A stretch of 62,370 nt of DNA, taken from positions 1-62,370 of the forward strand of contig CAIJNK010000022.1 in the NCBI GenBank assembly GCA_903822075.1, in the 5' to 3' direction. The notes under the pieces were generated by a model. The model saw only the letters and a program-made list of their open reading frames with translations, ran no database searches and was not told the DNA's origin. The DNA is from an uncultured bacterium. Its GTDB lineage: Bacteria > Patescibacteriota > Minisyncoccia > Phycocordibacterales > GWA1-40-21. Shown one piece after another: positions 51,163-62,370 of the stretch (position 1 is the stretch's first letter; the number at the start of each line of letters is the position of its first letter). A program made the translations under genes and the position numbers.

Positions 51163-51163
51163 G

Positions 51164-51235
51164 GGTGGCTACCGGGAGTTGAACCCGGACAGAGAGCTCC
51201 ACAAGCTCGCGTGCTACCGCTACACCATAGCCACC
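51164..51235 (-). tRNA. tRNA-His(GTG)
   Basis: G-1, acceptor GTGGCTA/TAGCCAC, C73, anticodon loop TT-GTG-GA, GTTCAAC T-loop. Confidence 0.93.
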
Positions 51236-51244
51236 ATTTCGCTC

Positions 51245-51835
51245 CTATTTATAGCTAGGAGACTGCTCATTTATACCACTTTTATAGGCAGAAAGTCTAG
51301 CGAGAGCAAAAAGTAAACTGGATAGACGATTGAGATACGCAAAAGAATTGGCCGAAATTTTAGGAAAGCCCTTGTCCCGCGAAGCTTCTGCGGAGTGGGA
51401 TTCTTCCGAAACCGCCACCACTCGCCTCTCCGCTTGACGCACCAAAGTCCGGGCAAAGTCCAGTTCAGCCGATTCGATGGAAGCGCCGGGGATGGTAAAA
51501 GTGGTAATTGGTGGAATTTCTTTTTCAATGCCGGCAATCAAGTCCTCCACTTCCCGTATTTTTTCTTCACCGACTACTTTCTTTGCTCCGGCCACCTCGG
51601 CCTGGATGATAAAAATATTTTCCTGCATTTCCTGAATTATATCCGCCGCCCTTTCCGGACCGACTGAAAACAAAGTAAAATTTCTTTCCGCCAATTTAGC
51701 TTTGACGATACCTAAAAAGGAGTTTGTTTCGTCCAAAGAACCCAAAGCTTCCGCAATGGCTGAGCTTTTGGAAAAACGCTGATCACAATCATAAGCGCCG
51801 GTTTTTCCATCATCTCCTTTTCTGGTGTATAGCAT
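51245..51835 (-). CDS. PduO-type cob(I)alamin adenosyltransferase
   Basis: LYTRKGDDGKT, GSLDE.NS.LG, R..VR.AERR, YLNRLS..LF.LAR. Confidence 0.9.
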   Translation of the reverse strand: MLYTRKGDDGKTGAYDCDQRFSKSSAIAEALGSLDETNSFLGIVKAKLAERNFTLFSVGPERAADIIQEMQENIFIIQAEVAGAKKVVGEEKIREVEDLIAGIEKEIPPITTFTIPGASIESAELDFARTLVRQAERRVVAVSEESHSAEASRDKGFPKISANSFAYLNRLSSLLFALARLSAYKSGINEQSPSYK

Positions 51836-51944
51836 TCTTACATCATAACATTTTCTTTTTACATATAAAATTATGCCAAATAAAAAAGCACCCTCAGCCG
51901 AAGCATTGGGTGCCCATAGTACTATAGATTCTCCAGTTCCGCCC

Positions 51945-52739
51945 TTACTCGATGATGAAACCGCGACTAGCCAAGATATTGTGCAGAGCTGACGGATCCG
52001 TCTTCGGAACAACGTGGGTCATCGTTGCCCAAGTTGCTGGCAGATTGTATTTTCCACCAAACGCGACGTCATCGGCCTTCAACTCTGCCGCCAATTCATC
52101 CGTTGCCCGACCAGTGCCGGTAATGAGAACGGTCACCCAACCCTGCTTGATGGACATAATGATCTCGTCCTTCGTCACAACGCCACCATTCCAGGAAATC
52201 AAGCCGAGTGACTTGAACCCTCCACAGTCGCGCCACTGATTCATGAGGGCGGCATACGTTTTGACATCGCCATCCCAGTCTAGACTACCGTCCGCCCCGT
52301 TTTGAACGACGAGGATCCCCAACATGCTGGGATTTGGAAAGGTTCCGTACTGATCCAGGACCAGACGAGACTCTTGCTGCAGAGTCATCATTTCCACCCG
52401 TGGCACCGTGCCAAGAGCGACGCAACCCTGATTCTCCGCCGCGATAATCCCGGGCACATCGGTCACCATGGGATCAATTGCTCCAGCTTTGGTGGTCTGC
52501 CGCGTGGCTCCTGACCAGACAAGCCCCACATATCCCCGAAATGCTTCCTTGAAAAAGGCCATCATCTGCGCCTTGTCGTCAGGACCCATTCCTTTGCATC
52601 CGCCCGCCAGGCGAATTGCAACCTTTTCATGGGCTGTCGTTCCCAACAGCGCAAAGGCTGAAGGCAACCCCTCTTTTGCATCCATAACCAACAACCTGAC
52701 TTTACCGCCGGGGGCGGTCACGCTATACGGACTGTTCAT
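51945..52739 (-). CDS. SLOG superfamily (LSDAT/TRPM N-terminal-like) protein B
   Basis: RLAGGC, WSGAT, LGTVP, VVQ..W..D, WNGG, LITGTGRATDELA. Confidence 0.7.
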   Translation of the reverse strand: MNSPYSVTAPGGKVRLLVMDAKEGLPSAFALLGTTAHEKVAIRLAGGCKGMGPDDKAQMMAFFKEAFRGYVGLVWSGATRQTTKAGAIDPMVTDVPGIIAAENQGCVALGTVPRVEMMTLQQESRLVLDQYGTFPNPSMLGILVVQNGADGSLDWDGDVKTYAALMNQWRDCGGFKSLGLISWNGGVVTKDEIIMSIKQGWVTVLITGTGRATDELAAELKADDVAFGGKYNLPATWATMTHVVPKTDPSALHNILASRGFIIE

Positions 52740-52740
52740 C

Positions 52741-53553
52741 TCATGCTCCTTGTGCAAGGGCAAACTTAAAAGTATTTCGGTGCCCTTCCGCCGAAACACC
52801 CCACACCCCAAGCTTTGCGAGCACACCCCGCAAAGACTCGGATGTTTTTTCTGCAACAAGCACATTTGGGTGCTCGTTTAAGAAATCATTATCTTCAGCC
52901 AGCTCTCCCGTAACCCTCCCGCTTCCGCTAACCAAGACGACCGGCCAACCACGCTCGGCGGTTTCCAGAATTTCTTTCTTGGTAACCGAACCACCGTTGT
53001 AAGAAATGAGCACGGATTGCCAATTGGCATAATCGCGCAAATTCTTGACGATATCCAAACAAACACGGTACTCTGCTTCCCACTCAACTCCGGTATCAAC
53101 GGACTGCTGAACAAGCAAACAGGCTTCTTGGTTGGGATGGATAATAGAGTCATAGGCGGCCCCGGACTCACCGGAAACCACCATACCCAAACCAGGAACC
53201 AATTTGAGCTCCGAAGTTCTGGGAACAACTCCCAAAATCACCGCGTCCGGCGCTCTAATTTTGATTCTTGTCGGTATCTCGGTTACAGATGGGAGTATCT
53301 TACCCCCTTCTTTAGAAATCATTCTGGTTCCGCCAAAAAGTATTCCGCCGTCAAAGCCTTTCAAGGCCTCGGCAAAAAGATCATACATACCGTCGGCGTC
53401 AGCCGCAGACATATTTCCACATCCACCGGTTATCCTTACAACAACCCGTGATGGTGCGCTCGTTAAACGCAGAGCGAACCTGATTGAACTTTCCCCCTTA
53501 TTTTGCATATATAAGGAGGGTATCACACGACCGTCATGATTCTGGTCATTCAT
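52741..53553 (-). CDS. SLOG superfamily (LSDAT/TRPM N-terminal-like) protein A
   Basis: RITGGC, FGGT, LGVVP, LLVQ..W..E, YNGG, GWPVVLVSGSGRVTGELA. Confidence 0.75.
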   Translation of the reverse strand: MNDQNHDGRVIPSLYMQNKGESSIRFALRLTSAPSRVVVRITGGCGNMSAADADGMYDLFAEALKGFDGGILFGGTRMISKEGGKILPSVTEIPTRIKIRAPDAVILGVVPRTSELKLVPGLGMVVSGESGAAYDSIIHPNQEACLLVQQSVDTGVEWEAEYRVCLDIVKNLRDYANWQSVLISYNGGSVTKKEILETAERGWPVVLVSGSGRVTGELAEDNDFLNEHPNVLVAEKTSESLRGVLAKLGVWGVSAEGHRNTFKFALAQGA

Positions 53554-53673
53554 ACTTCCTCCCTTCTATCTTGCAAAAGATAAAGATGGTGAATAGACAA
53601 AATTAACTTCAAAGAACCCACTGTCTAAAACAGTATCACATTAAACAAATAAAGTCAAATACTATTTCTTATG

Positions 53674-53757
53674 TGCCTGGGAGAGGACTTGAACCTCCAT
53701 GCCCGTAAGGGCGCTACCACCTCAAGGTAGTACGTCTACCAATTTCGCCACCCAGGC
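53674..53757 (-). tRNA. tRNA-Leu(GAG)
   Basis: GCCTGGG/CCCAGGC acceptor, CTACC-TT-GAG-GT-GGTAG, long variable arm, GTTCAAG. Confidence 0.95.
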
Positions 53758-53800
53758 GTTTGAGAATCAAATATAGCCTAAAATCAGGAAAAACTCAATC

Positions 53801-53831
53801 AAAAGCCCCGGCGTCAGACGCCGGGGCTTTT
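53801..53831. terminator. Bidirectional terminator after rplS
   Basis: aaaagccccggcgtc-a-gacgccggggctttt. Confidence 0.88.
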
Positions 53832-53850
53832 GTAATTTGTTTTATCTAAT

Positions 53851-54240
53851 TTATTTTGTCTCAACCGGAGCTTCTACTGTTTCCACTACTTCCTTGGCGT
53901 TGATGATATTCTTCATCTTACGGCGGATTTCCTTGGCGGCCTTATCACGAATATTATAAAGCTTGGCGCGACGAGTCTTTGAACTTCTGACTATTTCTAT
54001 CTTATCAATATTAGGCGAGTAAAAAGGAAAAATTCTCTCCACTCCTACCCCGTCAATCACCTTACGAACAGTAAAAGTACCGCCAGCCTCGTTACCGTGC
54101 TTGCGACCAATTATCATCCCTTCGAAAATCTGAATTCGGCTTTTGTCTCCTTCGGTAATCTTCTGGTGAACACGGACAGTATCACCGGCTTTGATAGCCA
54201 GTTTCTTTCGCTCTTCAATGTTTACTGATGAAATTTTCAT
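53851..54240 (-). CDS. rplS: 50S ribosomal protein L19
   Basis: [39 protein letters not shown]. Confidence 0.97.
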
Positions 54241-54276: not shown

Positions 54277-54990
54277 TTATTTAAAGAAATCCACCGCCGC
54301 CTGGAAATCCACCGGATAAGGGGCAATTATCTTTATTAACTTACCTTCCGGTAATTCAAATTCGATAGAGTAAGCGTGCAGGGCCAGACGGGAAATATTC
54401 ACCGGAGACTTCTTGGCTACGCCATATAACCTGTCCCCAATAATCCCATGTCCTAAATCCGCAAAATGCACCCGAAGCTGATGTGTTCGTCCGGTCCGCG
54501 GGTTAGCCTCGATCAAAGAAATTTTTCCCTTCCGAGCCAAAGTTTTATAATGAGTCACGGCTTCTTTTTCTTCACCACGCACTGCCTTACCGGTGGCCTT
54601 TTTTCGAAAATCACTTTTATTGCGACCGATGGCCAGATTAATAATCCCTTCATCGTACCGCACGTCACCATACACCACCGCATGATAAGTTTTTTCTATC
54701 TCCCGATCCAAAAACTGCTTTTTTAAAAAGTCATAAGCTTTCTGATTCTTAGCCACCAAAACCACGCCGGAAGTTTCCCGGTCAATCCGATGCACTATTC
54801 CCCACCTTTTGATAATTTCCCCGGTGCCTATTTCCAAAGGTTCACCCACCTTCTCCGTGTCGGGATATTTTTCCTTAAGCCAATCCGTCAAAGCCGGCTC
54901 TTGGGTCCGCCCATCGGTATGTATCACAAGACCGCTCGGTTTATTCACCGCCAATAGATTACTGTCTTCATATAGAATCGGGATATCCAT
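54277..54990 (-). CDS. RluA/RluD family pseudouridine synthase
   Basis: VNKPSGL, HRIDRETSG, TGRTHQLRVH, IIGD.LYG, LHAY. Confidence 0.95.
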   Translation of the reverse strand: MDIPILYEDSNLLAVNKPSGLVIHTDGRTQEPALTDWLKEKYPDTEKVGEPLEIGTGEIIKRWGIVHRIDRETSGVVLVAKNQKAYDFLKKQFLDREIEKTYHAVVYGDVRYDEGIINLAIGRNKSDFRKKATGKAVRGEEKEAVTHYKTLARKGKISLIEANPRTGRTHQLRVHFADLGHGIIGDRLYGVAKKSPVNISRLALHAYSIEFELPEGKLIKIIAPYPVDFQAAVDFFK

Positions 54991-55001
54991 AATTTTATTC
55001 G

Positions 55002-55074
55002 TGGGCGATACAGGACTCGAACCTGTGACATCTTCAGTGTAAATGAAGCGCTCTACCAACTGAGCTAATCGCCC
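55002..55074 (-). tRNA. tRNA-Val(TAC)
   Basis: GGGCGAT/ATCGCCC, CTTCA-TT-TAC-AC-TGAAG, GTTCGAG. Confidence 0.96.
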
Positions 55075-55078
55075 ATTG

Positions 55079-55150
55079 TGCCCTCGGTAGGAATCGAACC
55101 TACATCAAAACCTTAGAAGAGTTCTGTTCTATCCATTGAACTACGAGGGC
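55079..55150 (-). tRNA. tRNA-Arg(TCT)
   Basis: GCCCTCG/CGAGGGC, GAACT-CT-TCT-AA-GGTTT, GTTCGAT; 4-nt spacer to tRNA-Val. Confidence 0.95.
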
Positions 55151-55180: not shown

Positions 55181-55522
55181 TTAAAGCGAAGGGTCAATCA
55201 GTTTGATACGATTAGCTTTTAGTTTGAGATAGTCCGCCTGTTTTGTCTGCAAGGCTTGGAGATCGGCCTCTAATCTTTTTATGTTGACCGTTTTTACGGA
55301 AACGTCCGCCGGTTCCTCCGTCGGTGGAAGATAACCACCGGCTAACTGATCACTCAGGTATATTTGCCAGGCGAAAAGAGACAGAGAAATGAGTCCAAGG
55401 GCAAAAAGAGAAACAATGATTTTCCAATCTCGCGCAAAACGTGTTGGGTAAGCGGCTGGACCAATCCCCTCTGGTTTCTTGGTTCCGTGCTTAATAATAT
55501 TCTTTAAACTTATGTTTTTCAT
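55181..55522 (-). CDS. Single-TM protein, PilP-position gene of the pilus alignment cluster
   Basis: One TM plus coiled tail; fourth gene after pilM. Confidence 0.5.
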   Translation of the reverse strand: MKNISLKNIIKHGTKKPEGIGPAAYPTRFARDWKIIVSLFALGLISLSLFAWQIYLSDQLAGGYLPPTEEPADVSVKTVNIKRLEADLQALQTKQADYLKLKANRIKLIDPSL

Positions 55523-55546
55523 GTTTGAAATTTATTTTAGAAAAAA

Positions 55547-56083
55547 TTATTTTTTCAGTTTAGCCACCGAAAAATCCAAATCGGCTGACCATACTTTATC
55601 TGAACTAACGCTAAAAGTAACGCTGTTTATGGTTGATATAACCGGTAAATTCTCGATGGCCTGCAGAAAATTAGAGATATTATTCCACGAGCCGGAAATA
55701 CTGAATCGATACCTGATGGCGGAGACCACATCGGATGAACCAAGCTCACTTATGGCTTCATAAGCCAGAGTCTTTTTCTGGGTCACTTTATTTTGTAAGG
55801 CCAGATCTTCCAAGTATTTGGTAAAATTCAAAGTTTCAACATCACCGGCCGCCACAAAATAACCAATAAGCTTTTCCCGATCGTCCTTTGAACTCGCAAT
55901 GGAGGACTTTAAACTTACTTCTCTGGCTCTCTCTTGGGTGGAGATATCCCACTGCTTGACTTTGTCATTGATACTCATAATTCTGCCTAAAAGCAGATCT
56001 GTAAAAATAACGTCCAAAACTAAGACACCGATCAAAACAACGGTAGAAAAGATAAGTACTTTTTTCGAATAATTTATTTTCAT
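55547..56083 (-). CDS. PilO-like protein
   Basis: TM, coiled coil, then ferredoxin-like G.W..I..FL..IENLP. Confidence 0.65.
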   Translation of the reverse strand: MKINYSKKVLIFSTVVLIGVLVLDVIFTDLLLGRIMSINDKVKQWDISTQERAREVSLKSSIASSKDDREKLIGYFVAAGDVETLNFTKYLEDLALQNKVTQKKTLAYEAISELGSSDVVSAIRYRFSISGSWNNISNFLQAIENLPVISTINSVTFSVSSDKVWSADLDFSVAKLKK

Positions 56084-56625
56084 AACGTGGTTTTAATATT
56101 TAAAGTGAAAGGGATATCACGATCATTGGCATAGTCTGAAACCGGATAATCCACGCTCGCAAATCCCGCCTTGGACCGCAGATCTTCGATAAAGGTCACC
56201 AATCCTTCACGGTTCTTGGAAACACCGCCAACGACGATCAGTGCCACTCCGGCTTTTTGAAGACTGAAAGAATAATTGGTCAGACGGATACTGCTGTTTT
56301 TATTTTCAATCACCTTCGAAAAATATGTCGACGGGGTGACTTGGCTGCCGTTATACAACTCTTCCACCTTTAATTCGTCCAGTGTCTCCGCCACTACTTG
56401 GGTAGCACTCTCACCAACATTTTCTTTATTCTCCACGTTAATAGCATTTTTAAATGATTCGGCGGCCTGGTTATCTTTTTCGCTCACGGAAAAATAATAA
56501 GGTACAACATATGCCAAAAGAAAACTGCCTAGTAAGGAAAGAACGAGGAGAGAAAGAGCACAGAGTCGGATAAAATAATCCAGTCTTATCCCCTTTTTTT
56601 GTTTTGTGGTAATTAAATTTGCCAT
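56080..56625 (-). CDS. PilN-like protein
   Basis: TM, then I.V.GVSKNREGLV.FIE.L; located between pilM and pilO-like genes. Confidence 0.65.
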   Translation of the reverse strand: MANLITTKQKKGIRLDYFIRLCALSLLVLSLLGSFLLAYVVPYYFSVSEKDNQAAESFKNAINVENKENVGESATQVVAETLDELKVEELYNGSQVTPSTYFSKVIENKNSSIRLTNYSFSLQKAGVALIVVGGVSKNREGLVTFIEDLRSKAGFASVDYPVSDYANDRDIPFTLNIKTTL

Positions 56626-56628
56626 TGT

Positions 56629-57693
56629 TTAAAACAAGCTTAGACCATTTACCGCCGCCAGATCGAGTGAATCCAACTTGTTGATCTCCGGAACATAATC
56701 ACGCAAATCAAAATTGTTTACCCAGATATTGCCAACTTCCACGTTCATATTCAAATTTAAGGATAGATATTTGTCAAAACCGACGATCATTGCATCTCGT
56801 CCGCACAAGATAATCCTGTCTACCTGAGTATCCACATCTTCGCGCTCATTACAGTAAGAAATAAACTTATAAATTTCATCTTTAATGGCGGAAATAGTAT
56901 TGATCAAATAGGAAAATATTTCCATGTTGTCAGGATTCTCGCTATAAAGTTTTTCTCTCTTTATTTTTAAAGCCTCTTCCGGTGAAACCTTAAAATATTT
57001 GGCCAACAAATCAGTGAATGTTGAACTACCAAAATTCAAAGAGGAGGTCTGGCACACCACACCATATACCGCCAAAGACAAAATAATGTTTGACTCCCTA
57101 ATACTAACCAGCACAACCACCTGTTCATTACCTTCACGTACCACCGCTTTTGCCACATTGTTTGACTCTGGACTGAAAAAAATCGGAGTTAAGCCGGCTG
57201 ATTCAAAAAGATTCTGTAATTCTTCCACGAGCTTGAGAGAGGTCACGGAGACCACTACCTCTAACCCATTTTTATGACTTGGACTAGGCACAACATCATA
57301 ATCAAAAACTGCTTCTTTGGCTGACAGAGGAACGTTTTCTTCAATTTTAAAGTCCAAAATATCTCGGACTTCTTTAGCGCTGAGATCCGGCAAATGAGTC
57401 TTAAAAATATAAGTTTTTTCTTCCGGAATCGAAAAACGGACAAAGCTGACATTGGTTTTTTTTCGGATTTCGTAAAGAGCCTTCAGCACTGGCTCCTTCC
57501 TAATGATTTCCCCTTGTGCCATCGTACCGGCCGGTAATGGCAACCAACCATGAACGTTGGGCAATAAGCCTTTTTCTGTGCTTTTATTTAGTAAAAAATA
57601 GACACCCTCGGGTAATATTTCCAAGGAAACAGACGGCATTTCTAAAAATTTGGGTGGCGTAAATAATTTTGAATATTGTGCTTTATGAGACAT
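56629..57693 (-). CDS. pilM: Type IV pilus assembly protein PilM
   Basis: Actin-like fold motifs (IE..VPL...EA.FDY, GSSTFT, IILCG); operon context. Confidence 0.8.
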   Translation of the reverse strand: MSHKAQYSKLFTPPKFLEMPSVSLEILPEGVYFLLNKSTEKGLLPNVHGWLPLPAGTMAQGEIIRKEPVLKALYEIRKKTNVSFVRFSIPEEKTYIFKTHLPDLSAKEVRDILDFKIEENVPLSAKEAVFDYDVVPSPSHKNGLEVVVSVTSLKLVEELQNLFESAGLTPIFFSPESNNVAKAVVREGNEQVVVLVSIRESNIILSLAVYGVVCQTSSLNFGSSTFTDLLAKYFKVSPEEALKIKREKLYSENPDNMEIFSYLINTISAIKDEIYKFISYCNEREDVDTQVDRIILCGRDAMIVGFDKYLSLNLNMNVEVGNIWVNNFDLRDYVPEINKLDSLDLAAVNGLSLF

Positions 57694-57749
57694 GGCTTTA
57701 TCTCCGAACATTATAGCACACCGTTTAATCCATTAACAAAGTAAAATAA

Positions 57750-60700
57750 TCACCGGCACCCCAACGCCCCCTTGGCCGCCCCCACCTTGCTCTGGGGGAT
57801 CACATCAATGGTAATCAAAAGATCGATGAATTGGCAGACGGACGGGGCTGGAGCAGTTGAGGCTTCCTGCTTCAGGATACTATTCACATACTTGATGGAA
57901 CCCAGACCAAAGACACCGGTGCCTTTGGTGACACCGGCCGGTTTCAGGATGTTCGTGTAGTGAGCATTCTGGAAGCGGATGAGAGCGAGTCTGGTGGCAT
58001 CATTGAAGTAAGCGGTTTCGTGAGAGGGAGAACTGGTGCCGGTCTTGGCAATGATGAAGCCGTGGGTGTTCAGGAAGATTTGGAGATATTTCACGTCTGG
58101 GTCCGTAGTGTAAGGGTTTAGGATATGGGTGAAGAGGAAGAGGGGGGTGCTGGCACCTGGGGTGGAAGTGGCAGTGATGAGAGGTGAAGTTGAGGTGGCC
58201 AGAGTGCAGGCTTGAGTGGTGGTGGCCACGGTGGAGCAGTTGGTGGGGGTTTTGGTGAGGACTAAACGGGTTTGAAGGGTGGAGGTGGCGGTGCAGGGAG
58301 ACCAGGGGGAATAGGTGATGGCAGAGCAGACAGGGGGTGGCGGAGTACCGCCACCTCCTCCACCTCCGATGTAAGGAGGAACATATGTGCAGGATTGGGA
58401 TAAAACAGGAGTGCCTCCGGTGCAACCGGAGGGAGAGGAAGTGACTACGGTGTGGGTTTGAGTTCCCGAAACAGGACAAACGGCCGGTGACCAAGCGGTG
58501 TAGGTGAAGGAGGTGCAGGTGGGAGGACCTGGTGGCGGAGTGGTTGTGTATTCGTAGGCGCCGATGTCCCAAGGAACATTCCGAGTAATCCCATCTTTAT
58601 CTTTTGTAAAAGAGACTGATAAATTTAATCCGACGTCTTTCAAGGGGCTTATGGATTGAAGATGATAATCTTGCGATAAAACATTCACAAACTTCGGGTC
58701 ACCTCCATTTATCGAGGGAGAACCTTCGGTAAAATAGGCCGTGCTTTTTGTGGTATATGAGGGACCCCCGCAATAATTATTCGAAGCGGTTAACCCCGAA
58801 GCATTATTAGTTGCGTAACATCCCTTATCAGTATGTGTTGGCTCGTCCCCGCAATTGAGGAAAACATTATTTTTCACCTCGACCCCAGTTGAATGAGAAC
58901 CGAACGAAATAGCGTTAGAACTGAATGTTCTCGTAGTGCCAAACAAATAATACATATACCCGACTGTATCAAAAACGTTGTTATAAATTTTAAGATTACT
59001 AAAGGCTTGTCCGTTATCTTGTGACATTAATCCAACTCTATAAAAAATATTATTTCTAAAAACAATATTATCTACGACCGTGCCCTGCGGCTGGCAAATA
59101 TTATTTCCATACCACACCTGCACCTTGGCGTCGTGAACATAATTGCCTTCTATGAGAATATTCCTAACGTCGTACGAGGTAGCGCAAGCGTTATCATTGG
59201 TAAACCATTGCACAAAATCGCCATGATTACGATCCACATTGGCATCTTTATCCATATTCTTCACTTCATTAAAAGAAATTATGTGATTGGTGCCATGAAC
59301 TCTAAACGCATCAGTATCTTTGCAATCTTTAATTATACTATGTGTGACCGTTACACTATCTGTCCCCAATCCGTCCCGTCTGTCGGCCTCGCCCACAGAC
59401 ACAGCATAAGTATCGTCAATATTTTGCACGGTTGAACCAGTCATTAAATCATGGTCTCCAAACAGGCTGATTCCTTCCAAATCAGTAATATTATGCCCGT
59501 CTATAGTGCTCCCATTAATAATCAGGTGATCGCTGCACCTATTCGCGTAAAGAATACTATATGAAGAATTTGAAGCGCTGCCAATGATAAGATTATTGAG
59601 AATTACATATGACGCACAGTTTGTATGATTGTCGGATGAGCCAATAAATATCTGCTTTACATAAACGTCCCCACTTCCTGTAAATGTTATCGGATTTCCG
59701 GCTGTCCCCGAATGAGTCACAGTAACAGTCTCATCATAAGTCCCGGCATAAATCAAACAAGTCTGGCCGGAGGTTACGGCATTTGCGCAAGCCTGAACTG
59801 TTGTATATGTATTTAGAACAGAATTAGAGACAGATATAAGCTCAACTTTTTTAGCAGTAAAATTCGCGGTGATGGTTTTGTTTCCGTTCATAGTGACGGT
59901 TATGGGATTGGTGGTGCCGGTTGCGTCACCGGTCCAGTTGAGGAAGGTGTAACCTGTGCTTGGATTGGCGGTAATAGTGACGGAGGTGCCTGAGTCGTAA
60001 GTGGCTTGGTCGGGAGACTTGGTGACGGTGCCGTTTGTTGCCGGGGTGGAGAGGGTGTAAGAGACAACATTCATACACGTGGCTGAACAAGTGTCACCCG
60101 GGGTGCCGTTATGGGCGGTGCCGTGGTCGCATTGTTCTTGGATTTGGGTGGCGGGTTCGAATTTGAAGGCGTCGGCGAAGACGTAGCCGTCGGTGGCGCT
60201 TGTGGTTTGGACTAGGGAATATTCGTCGCCTAAACCATTAAAGTCGTAGGTGCCGATTTGGTTCCATTGTCCGCCGTTGGTGGATTCGTTGAAGGTGACC
60301 GGTGTGGTGGTTCCGCTGTGTTTGATGACAATCGGGACTTGGGTGGCTCCGGGGTAAGTGCTGTCTCCTTGAGGATACCAAATGGAAACCTTGTAGCTTC
60401 CGGCGGCTGTGAGATTGGGATTAAACTTTACAGTCTTTGTTCCTTTGCCCGTGTTACCGTCATGAAGGTAGTTGGTACTGTACATTGTTGTGGAGAAATA
60501 TGTTGAGGGTGTCCAGCCTGTGGAGATATCGCCAGATGGGATGTTGGTGTTGTCTACAATGGTGGGAGCAACTGTGTCTTGGTTAACAACTCCATCTCCA
60601 CAATATGATGGTTGAGGGTCAATGAGGGAAAGAGGATGAGGGTAGACGTAGGGGGTGTAATAGGCGGTCCAGGTGTCGGGAGCGGTGCATTTGTATAATG

Positions 60701-62370
60701 TGCCTTTTATTGGAGTGGTTGGATTAGCTCCAACATTGGCGTCGTCAACGCCGGCACAGTTTTGATCGGTGGCCCAATAGCCGACACCAGTGGTGCAAGT
60801 GGGAGGCATGTCGGCTTGGTGACCACAACCGATGCCAGTGGTGCCGTCGAAAGAAGGCTTCTGGTTGTAAAATTGGCTATTTTCCGATAAAACCTTACAA
60901 CAATCTGATATAATTTTATATTTAGACGTGTTATCTGGGTCAGTGCTCCAATTGTTATTTACCGTCACTCTTGTATCAGTAACTGATGAAATTTGTTCAG
61001 TTTGTCCAGCGCCAGTACCATCATAAATATTTAATCCGTACGTAGTTGGGAATGAATTAGAAAAAGAACCAGAAAAGTTTTGTGTGCTATCATCTAAATA
61101 ATTATCACCTCCACCGGTTGCAGAACCGCTTAATGGAACAAATAATGCGCCCAAAATGGGTGTAGTAGTGTTTTTTCTGTTATTCCAATAATAAGTGTCA
61201 TGAATATGCTGAGGTTCTAAACTTGTCGTAGGGTTATCAGAATCTGTCCATTCTTCTCTTACTTGCATAGAAGTATTTCCAGTCGTGACAATATTATTAC
61301 CGAATACTAATGTTTTTCCGCCTCTTTGATCTAATAAATCAACCTTATTCGAACCAGATTGAACTAAATTACCATAAATTTCTCCTCCGAAGCATGACCA
61401 CATGCTCGCACCAGGATTTGAGCTATAATGATTGCCGTGCATATCAAATAAAGGACTGGCATTAACCGGCATCACAATAGTATTGTATCTATAAGCATAT
61501 CTTCCTGAATATTGGCAATCTTCAACCACACCGGATGAAACGCCGGAAAAATTATTATCCTCGTAGTAAAGATTGTCGTTGGCGCCAAATGTAAAAGTAA
61601 AATTATCCCAAAAAGAAGAGTTTCCGATTCCTGCATCGCTACGCGCCGGATACGCAATATTTTCGAAATTACAGTTATCAACGACGCCAAACATTCTGGC
61701 ATGACTAAAAATTGCGTTATGAGATTGAGTTGGGGCATTTAAAAAATGTATATGATCAATTCTTATTCCGGTTTGAATTGTAAATGGGGCATCCCTACCT
61801 CCAACCCCCAATGATATTCCCGAAGACTCATCACCAAAATCCATAGTTAAGCCCGTAACTCTAAAGGGTTTATTTGCGGAATAATTTAAAGGTTCATAGG
61901 TAATAAAATAAAATCCACCCGCGCCGGCAGTTAAAATAGTATTACCAATTCCTAATCCTTTTAATAGAATTCCTTTATTAATTGTAACACCGCTGTTCCA
62001 CGTGCAATTCCCCGCCGGGACCACCACGATGTCGCCGTCGGAGGCGGAGTCGATGGCGGTTTGGACGGCGGGTTGCTCGCAGGAGGTGGCGACAATGGTG
62101 TGGCCGGTGACGCACTGGGTGGTGTTGTAGCTTTTGCAGTCGGAGTTGCAGGTGAGGGTGCCCGAGACAAAGCCGGCAGCGACGGTGGAGCAAGTGTAGT
62201 TGTTGACGCCTTCGGAAGCGTTGGTGTCGCTTCCATCACAAGCTTCACCGGGGTCCACCTTGCCGTTACCACAGGAAGGCAAGGGGTCGTTATTGGTGAA
62301 AGGAGTGCTGGTGACCGTGTCGGCAAAGGAAAGCTCTGGTCTGGGGAGAGTGAAGTTCTCATGTTTGGCG
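57750..62370 (-). CDS. Giant secreted surface protein (5'-partial): Cys-rich repeats, two right-handed beta-helix domains, golvesin-like domain, InlB-B/Flg_new repeat, choice-of-anchor-Q-like motif, peptidoglycan-binding tail
   Basis: Frame open to the window end; CGNGKVDPGEACD; GGQWNQIG.Y.F..FADAF; GYTFLNWTGD; DYHLQS.SP..D.G..WDIGAYE; C-terminus similar to 409..4203. Confidence 0.8.
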   Translation of the reverse strand, partial: AKHENFTLPRPELSFADTVTSTPFTNNDPLPSCGNGKVDPGEACDGSDTNASEGVNNYTCSTVAAGFVSGTLTCNSDCKSYNTTQCVTGHTIVATSCEQPAVQTAIDSASDGDIVVVPAGNCTWNSGVTINKGILLKGLGIGNTILTAGAGGFYFITYEPLNYSANKPFRVTGLTMDFGDESSGISLGVGGRDAPFTIQTGIRIDHIHFLNAPTQSHNAIFSHARMFGVVDNCNFENIAYPARSDAGIGNSSFWDNFTFTFGANDNLYYEDNNFSGVSSGVVEDCQYSGRYAYRYNTIVMPVNASPLFDMHGNHYSSNPGASMWSCFGGEIYGNLVQSGSNKVDLLDQRGGKTLVFGNNIVTTGNTSMQVREEWTDSDNPTTSLEPQHIHDTYYWNNRKNTTTPILGALFVPLSGSATGGGDNYLDDSTQNFSGSFSNSFPTTYGLNIYDGTGAGQTEQISSVTDTRVTVNNNWSTDPDNTSKYKIISDCCKVLSENSQFYNQKPSFDGTTGIGCGHQADMPPTCTTGVGYWATDQNCAGVDDANVGANPTTPIKGTLYKCTAPDTWTAYYTPYVYPHPLSLIDPQPSYCGDGVVNQDTVAPTIVDNTNIPSGDISTGWTPSTYFSTTMYSTNYLHDGNTGKGTKTVKFNPNLTAAGSYKVSIWYPQGDSTYPGATQVPIVIKHSGTTTPVTFNESTNGGQWNQIGTYDFNGLGDEYSLVQTTSATDGYVFADAFKFEPATQIQEQCDHGTAHNGTPGDTCSATCMNVVSYTLSTPATNGTVTKSPDQATYDSGTSVTITANPSTGYTFLNWTGDATGTTNPITVTMNGNKTITANFTAKKVELISVSNSVLNTYTTVQACANAVTSGQTCLIYAGTYDETVTVTHSGTAGNPITFTGSGDVYVKQIFIGSSDNHTNCASYVILNNLIIGSASNSSYSILYANRCSDHLIINGSTIDGHNITDLEGISLFGDHDLMTGSTVQNIDDTYAVSVGEADRRDGLGTDSVTVTHSIIKDCKDTDAFRVHGTNHIISFNEVKNMDKDANVDRNHGDFVQWFTNDNACATSYDVRNILIEGNYVHDAKVQVWYGNNICQPQGTVVDNIVFRNNIFYRVGLMSQDNGQAFSNLKIYNNVFDTVGYMYYLFGTTRTFSSNAISFGSHSTGVEVKNNVFLNCGDEPTHTDKGCYATNNASGLTASNNYCGGPSYTTKSTAYFTEGSPSINGGDPKFVNVLSQDYHLQSISPLKDVGLNLSVSFTKDKDGITRNVPWDIGAYEYTTTPPPGPPTCTSFTYTAWSPAVCPVSGTQTHTVVTSSPSGCTGGTPVLSQSCTYVPPYIGGGGGGGTPPPPVCSAITYSPWSPCTATSTLQTRLVLTKTPTNCSTVATTTQACTLATSTSPLITATSTPGASTPLFLFTHILNPYTTDPDVKYLQIFLNTHGFIIAKTGTSSPSHETAYFNDATRLALIRFQNAHYTNILKPAGVTKGTGVFGLGSIKYVNSILKQEASTAPAPSVCQFIDLLITIDVIPQSKVGAAKGALGCR

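What the first reader, a model, noticed from the sequence alone, without database searches (positions are those of the whole stretch)
51945..53553. Tandem, divergent pair of SLOG/LSDAT-like proteins forming a two-gene operon beside tRNA-Leu
Both ORFs share the ordered motifs (I/L)xGGC, GxT, LGxVP, (L/V)VQ..W..(E/D), NGG and G(S/T)GRxxxELA, which I recognise as the SLOG fold related to the TRPM N-terminal ADP-ribose-binding region (LSDAT). They are tightly coupled (TGA-G-ATG), have SDs, a TTGACT promoter just downstream of tRNA-Leu, a boxA-like GTTCTTTGAA and a terminator near 51880-51913, and are GC-richer than the flanks. Established: SLOG domains bind or process nucleotides and act as sensors in conflict systems such as Thoeris ThsA, where they are fused to or paired with an effector. 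Here two stand-alone SLOG paralogs have no evident effector or TM domain. Inference: an undescribed heteromeric nucleotide-sensing, signal-degrading or defence module.
Basis: partly seen in the sequence, partly recalled or inferred. Interest (0 to 1): 0.75.

Follow-up and report, generated by a model that had tools for sequence, protein, structure and literature searches.

The report
Paired SLOG proteins tied to NAD salvage
Two adjacent, anciently duplicated genes encode stand-alone proteins with the nucleotide-binding fold of the N-terminal region of animal TRPM channels; they always occur as a pair, and in many tiny-genome bacteria they sit inside NAD-recycling operons, so they look like an undescribed two-subunit part of NAD metabolism and not an immune module.

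Summary
Genes A (52741-53553, 270 aa) and B (51945-52739, 264 aa) lie on the minus strand. They are 34% identical, joined by TGA-g-ATG, and both pass the Pfam LSDAT_prok threshold. AlphaFold models (pLDDT 88 and 96) match TRPM MHR1/2 domains best, then LOG-like enzymes.

New findings:
- In 101 related loci, B follows A wherever the contig allows. This is an obligate, ancient pair.
- The family is small, with no phage, plasmid or PADLOC match, and no defence genes recur beside it.
- In 15 of 64 non-redundant lineages the pair lies among NAD salvage genes, in shuffled orders: nicotinamidase, NAPRTase, NMNAT-NAD kinase, NadE, Nudix and the regulator NrtR. These lineages span Patescibacteria, one archaeal MAG and Melainabacteria.
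- Both paralogs keep the LOG catalytic Glu, which TRPM sensors have lost, and the Arg that binds ADP-ribose phosphates in TRPM2.

Best reading: a heteromeric LSDAT protein of the NAD/ADP-ribose recycling regulon, probably a LOG-like N-glycosidase (NMN to nicotinamide is the leading guess) or an ADPR binder. The defence reading is not supported. In this window the pair stands alone, away from NAD genes. No biochemistry was done.

The parts
53632..53658 (-). Promoter-like site: TTGACT (53653-53658), 15-nt spacer, extended -10 TGnGATACT (53632-53640)
   Evidence: Read from the sequence. The same architecture (TTGACT-15-TGtGATATT) is present in the 75%-identical locus L034, and TTGACA-N17-TATAAT-like sites occupy the same place upstream of A in many loci. 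The consensus scan did not call it, because the spacer is 15 nt. Function is inferred.
53609..53617 (-). Conserved leader motif GTTCTTTGA (boxA-like, G[CT]TCTTT[AGT]A) near the 5' end of the A-B transcript
   Evidence: The motif lies 26-74 nt upstream of the A start, sense strand, in 9 non-redundant lineages. 9 of 51 matches in 1.43 Mb fall within 7.2 kb of upstream-of-A sequence (expected 0.21, Poisson P 2e-12). The leaders have no stable fold. NusB/E binding was not tested.
52741..53553 (-). Gene A: 270-aa stand-alone LSDAT/SLOG protein (motifs TGGC, FGGTRM, TEIP, GVVPR, VQ..W.AE, YNGGxVTxxE, GSGR)
   Evidence: Pfam PF18171 at 35.7 bits. AF2 pLDDT 87.8. Foldseek best hits are TRPM2/4/5/8 MHR1/2 (E 4.5e-8), then YgdH/PpnN and TM1055. 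38 homolog clusters in 5.8 G proteins.
51945..52739 (-). Gene B: 264-aa paralog of A (motifs GGCKGM, WSGATRQ, PMVTDVPG, GTVPR, VQ..DWDGD, WNGGxVTxxE, G(S/T)GR); its start is 1 nt after A's stop
   Evidence: Pfam PF18171 at 27.4 bits. 34% identical to A. AF2 pLDDT 96.3. Foldseek best hits are TRPM2/TRPM4 MHR1/2, E 4e-10. 101 homolog clusters. Gene calls of 264 aa on sibling contigs.
51880..51915 (-). Intrinsic-terminator-like hairpin plus U-run closing the two-gene unit, 30 nt after B's stop and upstream of the PduO-type adenosyltransferase gene (51245-51835)

Best explanation
A and B are the two subunits of one stand-alone SLOG/LSDAT protein, most likely an A/B heterodimer or higher heteromer. 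Its job lies in NAD(P) salvage and ADP-ribose recycling, not in immunity. The pair is transcribed as its own unit: promoter-like site, boxA-like leader, A, B translationally coupled, terminator.

Each subunit has a Rossmann-like ligand crest. The NGGxxTxxE loop would hold a ribose 5'-phosphate, as the LOG motif PGGxGTxxE does. The GSGR arginine would hold a phosphate, as R358 does for ADP-ribose in TRPM2. The retained LOG-type glutamate would support hydrolysis of an N-glycosidic bond.

The most likely reaction is release of nicotinamide (or nicotinate) from a pyridine mononucleotide such as NMN. That would feed the nicotinamidase -> NAPRTase -> NaMN adenylyltransferase -> NAD synthetase -> NAD kinase route encoded next to the pair in many relatives. 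Cleavage or tight binding of ADP-ribose or 2'-phospho-ADP-ribose is the next option.

Shown: fold, paralogy, obligate pairing, conservation of the motif residues in both subunits, and NAD-operon linkage in relatives. Inferred: the heteromer, catalysis and the substrate.
For: 1. Fold and family. Pfam LSDAT_prok is above threshold for both. High-confidence AF2 models match TRPM MHR1/2 first, and for A also the LOG-like nucleosidase YgdH/PpnN and TM1055.

2. Obligate pair. In 101 loci, every A with room downstream is followed by B on the same strand; the only exceptions are contig ends. A orthologs across phyla are closer to A than to B. The genes are joined by TGA-g-ATG. LOG enzymes are dimers whose interface forms the active site (PMC4979012).

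3. NAD context. Full same-strand operons include NrtR|nicotinamidase|A|B|NMNAT-NADK|NAPRTase|Nudix|rSAM|NadE in Uhrbacteria (L009, L012), with variants in L006, L010, L011, L016 (an Aenigmatarchaeota-labelled MAG), L036 and L050. Shorter linkages are NAPRTase|A|B (L004), NrtR|A|B (L042), A|B|NrtR (L015, L059), PncA|A|B (L046) and A|B|NMNAT-NADK (L068). NAD kinase is divergent from the pair in Melainabacteria. That is 15 of 64 non-redundant lineages, scattered over the A tree, with shuffled gene order.

4. Regulation. The palindrome AGTGT-N7-ACACT occurs in 12 of 104 loci, always by nrtR or the pair (chance expectation is about 1-2 by my own estimate).

5. Residues. E194 (A) and E192 (B) have the same spacing as the catalytic E122 of C. 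glutamicum LOG (GGxxTxxE) and are invariant, whereas TRPM2 has Thr and TRPM8 has Ser there. The R of GSGR aligns with hTRPM2 R358, which contacts the ADPR phosphates.

6. The adjacent NMNAT is NadD-like (TIGR00482). By established knowledge NadD prefers NaMN, so NMN must be recycled through nicotinamide or by deamidation.
Against: No biochemical data of any kind. In this window the pair is not next to any NAD gene: tblastn with nine NAD-pathway proteins found nothing in 62 kb, and there is no NrtR-type operator upstream. About 60% of lineages with informative flanks show no NAD neighbour by tblastn. The LOG catalytic Arg has no identified counterpart, and Pfam's LOG model (Lysine_decarbox) does not hit. 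The closest structural relatives, the TRPM MHR1/2 domains, are non-catalytic sensors. The NAD operons already contain a complete Preiss-Handler route, so no step is obviously missing. In Melainabacteria, B has lost some motif residues (TR->TA, GSGR->GSLR; sequences printed), so at least one subunit may be non-catalytic.
Confidence: 0.45

Rival explanations
1. Non-catalytic ligand sensor or buffer. The A/B heteromer binds ADP-ribose, 2'-phospho-ADPR or NAD(P), as the TRPM2 MHR1/2 domain does, and regulates neighbouring enzymes (for example NMNAT-NAD kinase) or the recurrent kinase/PP2C proteins by protein-protein contact, without cleaving anything.
For: The best structural matches are the ADPR-binding, non-enzymatic TRPM MHR1/2 domains. 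The ADPR-phosphate-binding Arg of TRPM2 is conserved. NAD kinase is the partner shared by the Patescibacteria and Melainabacteria clades. Kinase-like and PP2C genes recur beside the pair.
Against: There is no output domain. Both paralogs keep the LOG-type Glu that the TRPM sensors have lost, plus an invariant Cys and several acidic residues on the ligand crest. Placement inside metabolic operons between enzymes is more typical of an enzyme.
Confidence: 0.25
2. One reading: a stand-alone SLOG pair acting as sensor or signal-degrading component of an undescribed anti-phage or conflict system (Thoeris-like logic, with the effector elsewhere), or a counter-measure that removes ADPR-derived immune signals or restores NAD after depletion.
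For: SLOG domains sense or are predicted to process ADPR-derived signals in conflict systems (PMC9503650). The cassette occupies different genomic sites even among 75%-identical relatives. It lies next to tRNA genes here and near a toxin-antitoxin pair and a transposase in L007. It is GC-richer than its flanks. Kinase/PP2C/vWA-like genes, which can be conflict-system parts (PMC7159879), recur nearby.
Against: No PADLOC hit. Absent from IMG/VR, phage and plasmid collections. No TIR, SIR2, SLATT or nuclease partner among the recurrent neighbours. Embedded in NrtR-type NAD operons of reduced genomes. The GC excess is a property of the genes in 39 of 40 loci, not a mark of recent arrival. The sequence is strongly conserved, not diversifying.
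Confidence: 0.12
3. A LOG-like purine or cytokinin-type nucleotide phosphoribohydrolase unrelated to NAD (general nucleotide salvage, like PpnN/YgdH), whose NAD-operon linkage is incidental synteny inherited within Patescibacteria.
For: A GGxxTxxE motif with LOG spacing. YgdH and TM1055 are among the fold matches. Purine genes are occasionally nearby: adenylosuccinate synthase in L003, and SAICAR synthetase and adenylate kinase in the census.
Against: NAD genes, not purine genes, are the recurrent neighbours, with gene order reshuffled among lineages and linkage also in an archaeal MAG and in Melainabacteria. Candidate NrtR operators lie next to the pair. There is no hit to the LOG Pfam model.
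Confidence: 0.1

Closest known systems
Prokaryotic LSDAT family (Pfam PF18171, 'SLOG in TRPM, prokaryote'; Burroughs et al. 2015, as cited in PMC13143021)
   Same: Both proteins pass the family HMM and share the TRPM-type SLOG fold.
   Different: Scores are only just above threshold. From my own recollection of the 2015 paper, which I could not read here, the described prokaryotic members are linked to SLATT or other effector partners in conflict systems. Here there are two stand-alone paralogs, always in tandem, with NAD salvage genes as the recurrent neighbours and no effector.
TRPM2 MHR1/2 domain (ADP-ribose-binding N-terminal module of the animal TRPM2 channel)
   Same: Best structural match (E 1e-8 to 1e-10, TM 0.5-0.67 on the query). 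The 'GGxxT...GSGR(V/A)AD' segment aligns residue for residue, and the Arg equivalent to R358 binds the ADPR phosphates in TRPM2. Both are tied to an NAD metabolite.
   Different: TRPM2's domain is fused to ankyrin-like repeats and an ion channel and is non-catalytic. It has Thr where A and B (and LOG) have the invariant Glu. Overall sequence identity is 12-16%.
LOG / PpnN (YgdH) nucleotide 5'-monophosphate phosphoribohydrolases
   Same: SLOG fold (YgdH 9us2 and TM1055 1rcu among the fold hits for A). A GGxxTxxE motif with identical spacing to PGGxGTxxE, including the phosphate-binding Thr and the catalytic Glu. LOG has a dimeric architecture, which offers a model for an A/B heterodimer.
   Different: No hit to the LOG Pfam model. 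No identified counterpart of the catalytic Arg. About 70 residues longer, with extra beta-strands. An additional GSGR motif. A heteromeric pair instead of a homodimer or hexamer.
Thoeris ThsA SLOG domain (sensor of TIR-made cyclic ADPR isomers)
   Same: A SLOG-superfamily domain that recognises an NAD-derived nucleotide (background in PMC9503650).
   Different: ThsA's SLOG is fused to a SIR2 or TM effector and is partnered with a TIR protein. Neither is present here, and PADLOC models do not hit.

Membership tests
SLOG superfamily, LSDAT clade (Pfam PF18171 LSDAT_prok) | Match to the family profile above its curated threshold | tested here: met
   A 35.7 bits and B 27.4 bits against a gathering score of 25.4. 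Most homologs carry precomputed PF18171 hits.
SLOG superfamily, LSDAT clade (Pfam PF18171 LSDAT_prok) | TRPM MHR1/2-like Rossmannoid fold | tested here: met
   AF2 pLDDT 87.8 and 96.3. Foldseek top hits are TRPM2/4/5/8 N-terminal domains at probability 1.00.
SLOG superfamily, LSDAT clade (Pfam PF18171 LSDAT_prok) | Operonic or fused effector partner (SLATT/TIR-type) as described for conflict-system LSDAT (own recollection of Burroughs 2015) | tested here: not met
   Neighbour clustering over 64 lineages and a Pfam census of 149 immediate neighbours show no recurrent effector family. Only the 25 most frequent families of the census were visible.
LOG / PpnN phosphoribohydrolases | PGGxGTxxE motif with phosphate-binding Thr and catalytic Glu | tested here: inconclusive
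   NGGxxTxxE with identical G-G-x-x-T-x-x-E spacing. T191 and E194 are invariant in A and B. However, P->N, the third Gly is not conserved, and no structural superposition on a LOG-AMP complex was possible.
LOG / PpnN phosphoribohydrolases | Catalytic Arg (CgLOG R99) and a match to the LOG family profile | tested here: not met
   No Pfam Lysine_decarbox/LOG hit even at E<=1. No Arg at the corresponding strand-loop position, where the pair has VQ...W.(A/G)(E/D).
LOG / PpnN phosphoribohydrolases | N-glycosidase activity on nucleoside 5'-monophosphates | not testable with these tools
   Needs an enzyme assay.
Thoeris (ThsA/ThsB) or other known defence systems | Match to defence-system protein models, with a TIR/SIR2 partner in the locus | tested here: not met
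   PADLOC gives 0 families for both proteins at E<=1. No such neighbours.
NrtR-controlled NAD metabolism regulon | Co-localisation with NAD salvage/biosynthesis genes and nrtR | tested here: met
   Met for the family: 15 of 64 non-redundant lineages, several as full same-strand operons. Not met for the window copy itself.
NrtR-controlled NAD metabolism regulon | NrtR operator upstream of the transcription unit | tested here: inconclusive
   AGTGT-N7-ACACT lies between nrtR and pncA-A-B in L009, L010 and L012, and in the divergent region upstream of A in L088 and L089. That it is the NrtR site is inferred from position and palindromy only. There is none upstream of A in the window.

The most novel reading that the evidence does not exclude
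A/B is the first catalytic member of the TRPM-type (LSDAT) SLOG clade. It would be a two-subunit N-glycohydrolase that performs a so far gene-less step of pyridine-nucleotide recycling (NMN nucleosidase, EC 3.2.2.14, or cleavage of ADPR/2'-phospho-ADPR) in Patescibacteria, DPANN archaea and Melainabacteria. It would be controlled by NrtR and by a BoxA-like leader. It would represent the metabolic ancestor from which the ADP-ribose-sensing module of animal TRPM channels was recruited.
Probability: 0.25. Interest if true: 0.75.

Novelty: new variant of a known kind. Interest (0 to 1): 0.58.

Why it matters
The LSDAT/SLOG domain is known as the ADP-ribose sensor of TRPM2 and as a predicted sensor in bacterial conflict systems. 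No stand-alone prokaryotic LSDAT protein has an assigned function in the literature I could search.

If an obligate A/B pair works inside NrtR-type NAD salvage operons, four things follow:
- It gives a concrete, testable candidate for an unassigned NAD-recycling activity in organisms that depend wholly on salvage.
- It links LOG-type enzymes and TRPM-type sensors through a form that keeps both the catalytic Glu and the ADPR-phosphate Arg.
- It suggests that NAD-metabolite recognition by the TRPM N-terminus is ancestral.
- It warns against reading every orphan SLOG gene as a defence gene.

Tried and rejected
1. Defence reading. PADLOC, IMG/VR, phage and plasmid tblastn and the neighbour census were all negative. 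Rejected as the main explanation.

2. AlphaFold of an A-linker-B paired alignment, to test the heterodimer and a composite site. B alone was modelled instead.

3. GC excess as a sign of recent horizontal transfer. Rejected as evidence, because the pair is GC-richer than its flanks in 39 of 40 loci.

4. Riboswitch or known RNA in the leaders. Rfam found nothing in the window leader or in seven NAD-linked loci. The leaders are not more stable than shuffles.

5. Rosetta-stone fusions. The few 640-800-aa relatives carry only a weak GNAT-like region plus an A-like SLOG. Uninformative.

6. Single-sequence PDB search with the C-terminal segment gave noise. A small profile of that segment gave the TRPM2/TRPM8/TM1055 alignments used here.

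7. The Burroughs et al. 2015 paper could not be retrieved, so statements about it rest on secondary citations and my own recollection.

8. An NrtR-type operator near the window copy: none found.
Full report
**What is in the window.** On the minus strand, downstream of rluD-like (54277-55059), rplS (53851-54240), a strong terminator (53800-53832) and tRNA-Leu(gag) (53673-53757), lie two ORFs. Gene A is 52741-53553 (270 aa). Gene B is 51945-52739 (264 aa). B's ATG starts one base after A's TGA (..GGAGCATGAgATGAAC..), with AAGGAG six bases upstream. A has GGGAGG four bases upstream of its ATG. The longer mechanical ORF for B (to 52865) is not the gene: homologs align from residue 1-3 of the 264-aa form, and other contigs of the same genome carry gene calls of 270 and 264 aa. 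Thirty bases after B's stop there is a GC-rich hairpin followed by U6 (51880-51915; -15.7 kcal/mol). A PduO-type adenosyltransferase gene (51245-51835), tRNA-His and an HD-domain gene follow.

**Fold and family.** A and B are paralogs: 34% identity over 209 residues, E 1e-35. Both pass Pfam's LSDAT_prok model (35.7 and 27.4 bits; cutoff 25.4), and nothing else hits at E<=1. NCBIfam and PADLOC have no model for them. AlphaFold2 models built on alignments of homologs are confident (A pLDDT 87.8, B 96.3). They show a Rossmann-like alpha/beta fold. Against the PDB, both match the N-terminal MHR1/2 domains of TRPM2, TRPM4, TRPM5 and TRPM8 best (E 1e-8 to 4e-10, query TM 0.5-0.67). For A, the LOG-like proteins YgdH/PpnN (9us2) and TM1055 (1rcu) follow.

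**Conserved residues.** In an alignment of 27 A-type and 26 B-type sequences, the invariant residues shared by both paralogs are G43 G44 C45, G69, G74, T91, P111, W158, N186 G187 G188, T191 and E194 (A numbering). R40, T76, R77, Q149, G210, G212 and R213 are nearly invariant. All of them sit at the C-terminal ends of strands or the N-termini of helices in the models, which is the usual ligand crest of Rossmann-like folds (inference).

A profile of the C-terminal segment aligns 'NGGsvTekE...GSGRaaDe' with human TRPM2 'EGGPGTLHT...GSGRVADV' (residues 328-368) and with TM1055 'GGEIGTAIE...GTGGWTD'. The Arg of GSGR is therefore the counterpart of TRPM2 R358, which together with the following helix N-terminus binds the two phosphates of ADP-ribose (PMC6759353). 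The spacing G-G-x-x-T-x-x-E is that of the LOG motif PGGxGTxxE, whose Thr binds the 5'-phosphate and whose last Glu (E122 in C. glutamicum LOG) is catalytic (PMC4979012). TRPM2 and TRPM8, which are sensors, have Thr or Ser at that position. A and B keep the Glu without exception. I found no counterpart of the LOG catalytic Arg.

**The pair is obligate and old.** A has only 38 homolog clusters and B 101 among 5.8 billion clustered proteins. A combined profile finds 653 representatives at E<=1e-3 among 1.84 billion, almost all 230-300 aa. I fetched 104 loci in all; the pairing survey covers the 100 then in hand plus the window. In every locus where the contig continues past A, a second paralog follows on the same strand. 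The only exceptions end at a contig edge. A orthologs from different phyla are closer to the window's A than to its B, and likewise for B, except in the most divergent Melainabacteria branch, where assignment is ambiguous. The duplication therefore predates the spread of the family and both copies have been kept together since. With translational coupling, and with the fact that LOG active sites form at a dimer interface, this makes a heteromer the natural model.

**Where the family occurs.** Named genome records are Patescibacteria (Uhrbacteria, Adlerbacteria, Parcubacteria, Falkowbacteria, Saccharimonadales), Melainabacteria/Obscuribacterales, one Aenigmatarchaeota MAG, one Bdellovibrionales MAG and one Planktothrix MAG. 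Three MAGs labelled Gammaproteobacteria carry loci that look like the Uhrbacteria ones. There is no relative in IMG/VR, in GenBank phages or in PLSDB plasmids. Its gene content (type IV pilus PilM/PilO-like genes, small ORFs, 43.6% GC) and its nearest A relatives suggest Patescibacteria, but that is an inference.

**Neighbourhoods.** After collapsing to 64 lineages (<85% A identity), the recurrent neighbours are NAD genes. The arrangements found are:
- Uhrbacteria L009 and L012: NrtR | nicotinamidase-like isochorismatase | A | B | NaMN/NMN adenylyltransferase-NAD kinase fusion | NAPRTase | Nudix | radical-SAM | glutamine-dependent NAD synthetase, all on one strand.
- L010: NrtR | PncA | NMNAT | A | B | NAPRTase | Nudix | rSAM | NadE.
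- L006: PncA | A | B | NMNAT-NADK | ADP-ribosylglycohydrolase | Nudix | NAPRTase.
- L011: NMNAT-NADK | A | B | NAPRTase.
- L036: NMNAT/NADK | NAPRTase | A | B.
- L050: A | B | NMNAT-NADK | Nudix | NAPRTase | NadE.
- L016 (the Aenigmatarchaeota-labelled MAG): A | B | NAPRTase | rSAM | .. | NadE.
- L004: NAPRTase | A | B.
- L042: NrtR | A | B.
- L015 and L059: A | B | NrtR.
- L046: PncA | A | B.
- L068: A | B | NMNAT-NADK.
- Melainabacteria: NAD kinase, divergent, about 600 bp upstream.

That is 15 of 64 lineages, or about 12 of about 42 with at least 4 kb of flank (about 11 of 29 in the Patescibacteria-type clade). They are scattered across the A tree and the gene order is reshuffled, which argues for selection on linkage and not for inherited synteny. 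For comparison, a random 12-kb stretch of a 1-Mb genome with one or two NAD loci would include an NAD gene a few percent of the time (my estimate, not computed).

In the remaining loci the immediate neighbours are heterogeneous: 133 Pfam families among 149 proteins. The most frequent are protein kinase (3), Nudix (3), NrtR (2) and cytidylyltransferase-like (2). No defence family is among the recurrent ones.

**Regulatory elements.** A palindrome AGTGT-N7-ACACT occurs in 12 of 104 loci, and always next to nrtR or the pair. It lies between nrtR and pncA-A-B in the Uhrbacteria group, beside nrtR in L011 and L059, and in the divergent region upstream of A in L088 and L089. Its position and symmetry fit an NrtR operator. 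That identification is an inference.

G[CT]TCTTT[AGT]A lies 26-74 nt upstream of the A start, 5-25 nt after a TTGACA-N17-TATAAT-like promoter, in nine non-redundant lineages, with one-mismatch versions in five more. Nine of 51 matches in 1.43 Mb fall within 7.2 kb of upstream-of-A sequence (expected 0.21, P 2e-12). The leaders have no stable fold and no Rfam match, so it acts as a linear element. It resembles the E. coli boxA core GCUCUUUAA (own knowledge). Whether NusB/NusE or some other factor binds it is unknown.

**The window copy.** This copy has the promoter-like site, the leader motif, both genes and the terminator, but no NAD gene within 62 kb and no AGTGT-N7-ACACT site upstream. Relatives 75% identical (L034, L099) sit in yet another context, with a bestrophin-like gene upstream and an HD phosphodiesterase downstream. 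The two-gene cassette therefore moves as a unit. Its GC excess (+0.095 here) is seen in 39 of 40 loci (mean +0.053), so it reflects the genes' composition and not necessarily recent transfer.

**Interpretation.** The evidence supports a two-subunit LSDAT protein that belongs to the NAD salvage/ADP-ribose regulon. Three facts point to a 5'-phosphoribosyl nucleotide of NAD metabolism as the ligand, and to N-glycosidic hydrolysis as a plausible chemistry:
- Both subunits keep a LOG-type phosphate-binding Thr and catalytic Glu together with the TRPM2-type phosphate-binding Arg.
- The pair is wedged between nicotinamidase, NAPRTase and a NadD-like adenylyltransferase.
- The regulator next door senses ADP-ribose in characterised NrtR proteins (established knowledge).

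My leading guess is NMN -> nicotinamide + ribose-5-phosphate. NMN is produced by NAD-dependent DNA ligase and by Nudix cleavage of NAD(H). NadD-type enzymes use it poorly (established knowledge), so it must be deamidated or broken down to nicotinamide to re-enter the encoded Preiss-Handler route. NMN nucleosidase is an activity for which I know of no assigned gene.

This specific reaction deserves perhaps 0.2 probability. 'NAD-linked nucleotide-processing or -binding heteromer' deserves about 0.45 as catalytic, with a further 0.25 for a non-catalytic ADPR/NAD(P) binder. The defence reading gets about 0.12 and an NAD-unrelated LOG-like role about 0.1.

**Novelty.** The domain family is known and these proteins already carry its Pfam label, so this is not a new fold or family. 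What I could not find described is the obligate tandem A/B architecture, its linkage to NAD salvage operons and nrtR across Patescibacteria, an archaeal MAG and Melainabacteria, the retention of the LOG catalytic Glu in a TRPM-type SLOG, and the conserved leader motif. I rate it a new variant of a known kind, of moderate to good interest.

Noticed in passing
L004 1-3989; L006 72-4875; L011 4108-7870; L016 5246-9910; L046 21-1374; L050 1046-5718 (L015 on the opposite strand): A second conserved module sits just upstream of the pair and the NAD genes in six or seven lineages, including the archaeal MAG. It comprises a PP2C phosphatase, a protein of about 620 aa with weak protein-kinase/TCAD9 and zinc-ribbon matches, a protein of about 370 aa (with an isochorismatase-like tail in L016) and a protein of 270-330 aa (weak vWA). 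Its function and its relation to the SLOG pair are unknown.
   Followed up: partly
L042 4510-5331; L089 464-1585; L098 459-1340: Another weakly kinase-like family (273-373 aa, with a DnaJ-like N-terminus in L089) lies beside the pair. It is preceded by, or shares a divergent region containing, the AGTGT-N7-ACACT palindrome.
   Followed up: partly
L009 8900-9095; L010 8250-8440; L012 8920-9110: A conserved leader of about 150-200 nt lies between the candidate NrtR operator and the nicotinamidase gene. It has its own TTGACA/TATTCT promoter and a GC-rich hairpin (CCCCACCGTGGGG) just before the start codon. It has no Rfam match and could be a cis-regulatory RNA of the NAD operon.
   Followed up: partly
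L006 7827-9215; L009 11661-13040; L011 8117-9499; L012 11726-13114; L050 7667-9121; L068 1538-2923: NaMN/NMN adenylyltransferase (NadD-like, TIGR00482) is fused to NAD kinase in one protein of about 460 aa in several Patescibacteria. I did not check whether this bifunctional enzyme has been described.
   Followed up: no
L009 15198-16217; L010 13680-14693; L012 15378-16415; L016 12979-13908: A radical-SAM protein (weak MoaA-like matches) is conserved between the Nudix/NAPRTase genes and NadE in the NAD operons of Uhrbacteria and of the archaeal MAG. Its role in NAD metabolism is unknown.
   Followed up: no
proteins P0195, P0212, P0223, P0252, P0274 (no loci fetched): Rare proteins of 640-800 aa carry an A-type SLOG domain at the C-terminus, after a long low-complexity or coiled region and a weakly GNAT-like domain. 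Their source organisms and contexts were not examined.
   Followed up: partly
window 53800-53832: A perfect 15-bp-stem, GC-rich hairpin with T-runs on both strands lies between rplS and tRNA-Leu. It looks like a bidirectional intrinsic terminator.
   Followed up: no
window 55001-55150 and 51163-51234: tRNA-Val(tac) and tRNA-Arg(tct) are 3 nt apart, and the start of the mechanical ORF for the rluD-like gene (54277-55059) overlaps tRNA-Val, so the true rluD start is probably further downstream. Sibling contigs nevertheless aa. tRNA-His follows the PduO-like gene. The pair is thus bracketed by tRNA genes.
   Followed up: no
window 57750-62282: A 1510-aa ORF lies upstream of a PilM/PilO-like type IV pilus assembly cluster (55181-57711). 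It was not analysed.
   Followed up: no
Melainabacteria loci, e.g. L018, L022, L023, L075 (second gene of the pair): In the Melainabacteria branch the B-type paralog has large insertions and has changed some otherwise invariant motif residues (GATR->GGTA, TD->TN, GSGR->GSLR), while A keeps them. This suggests asymmetric degeneration of one subunit (sequences printed).
   Followed up: no
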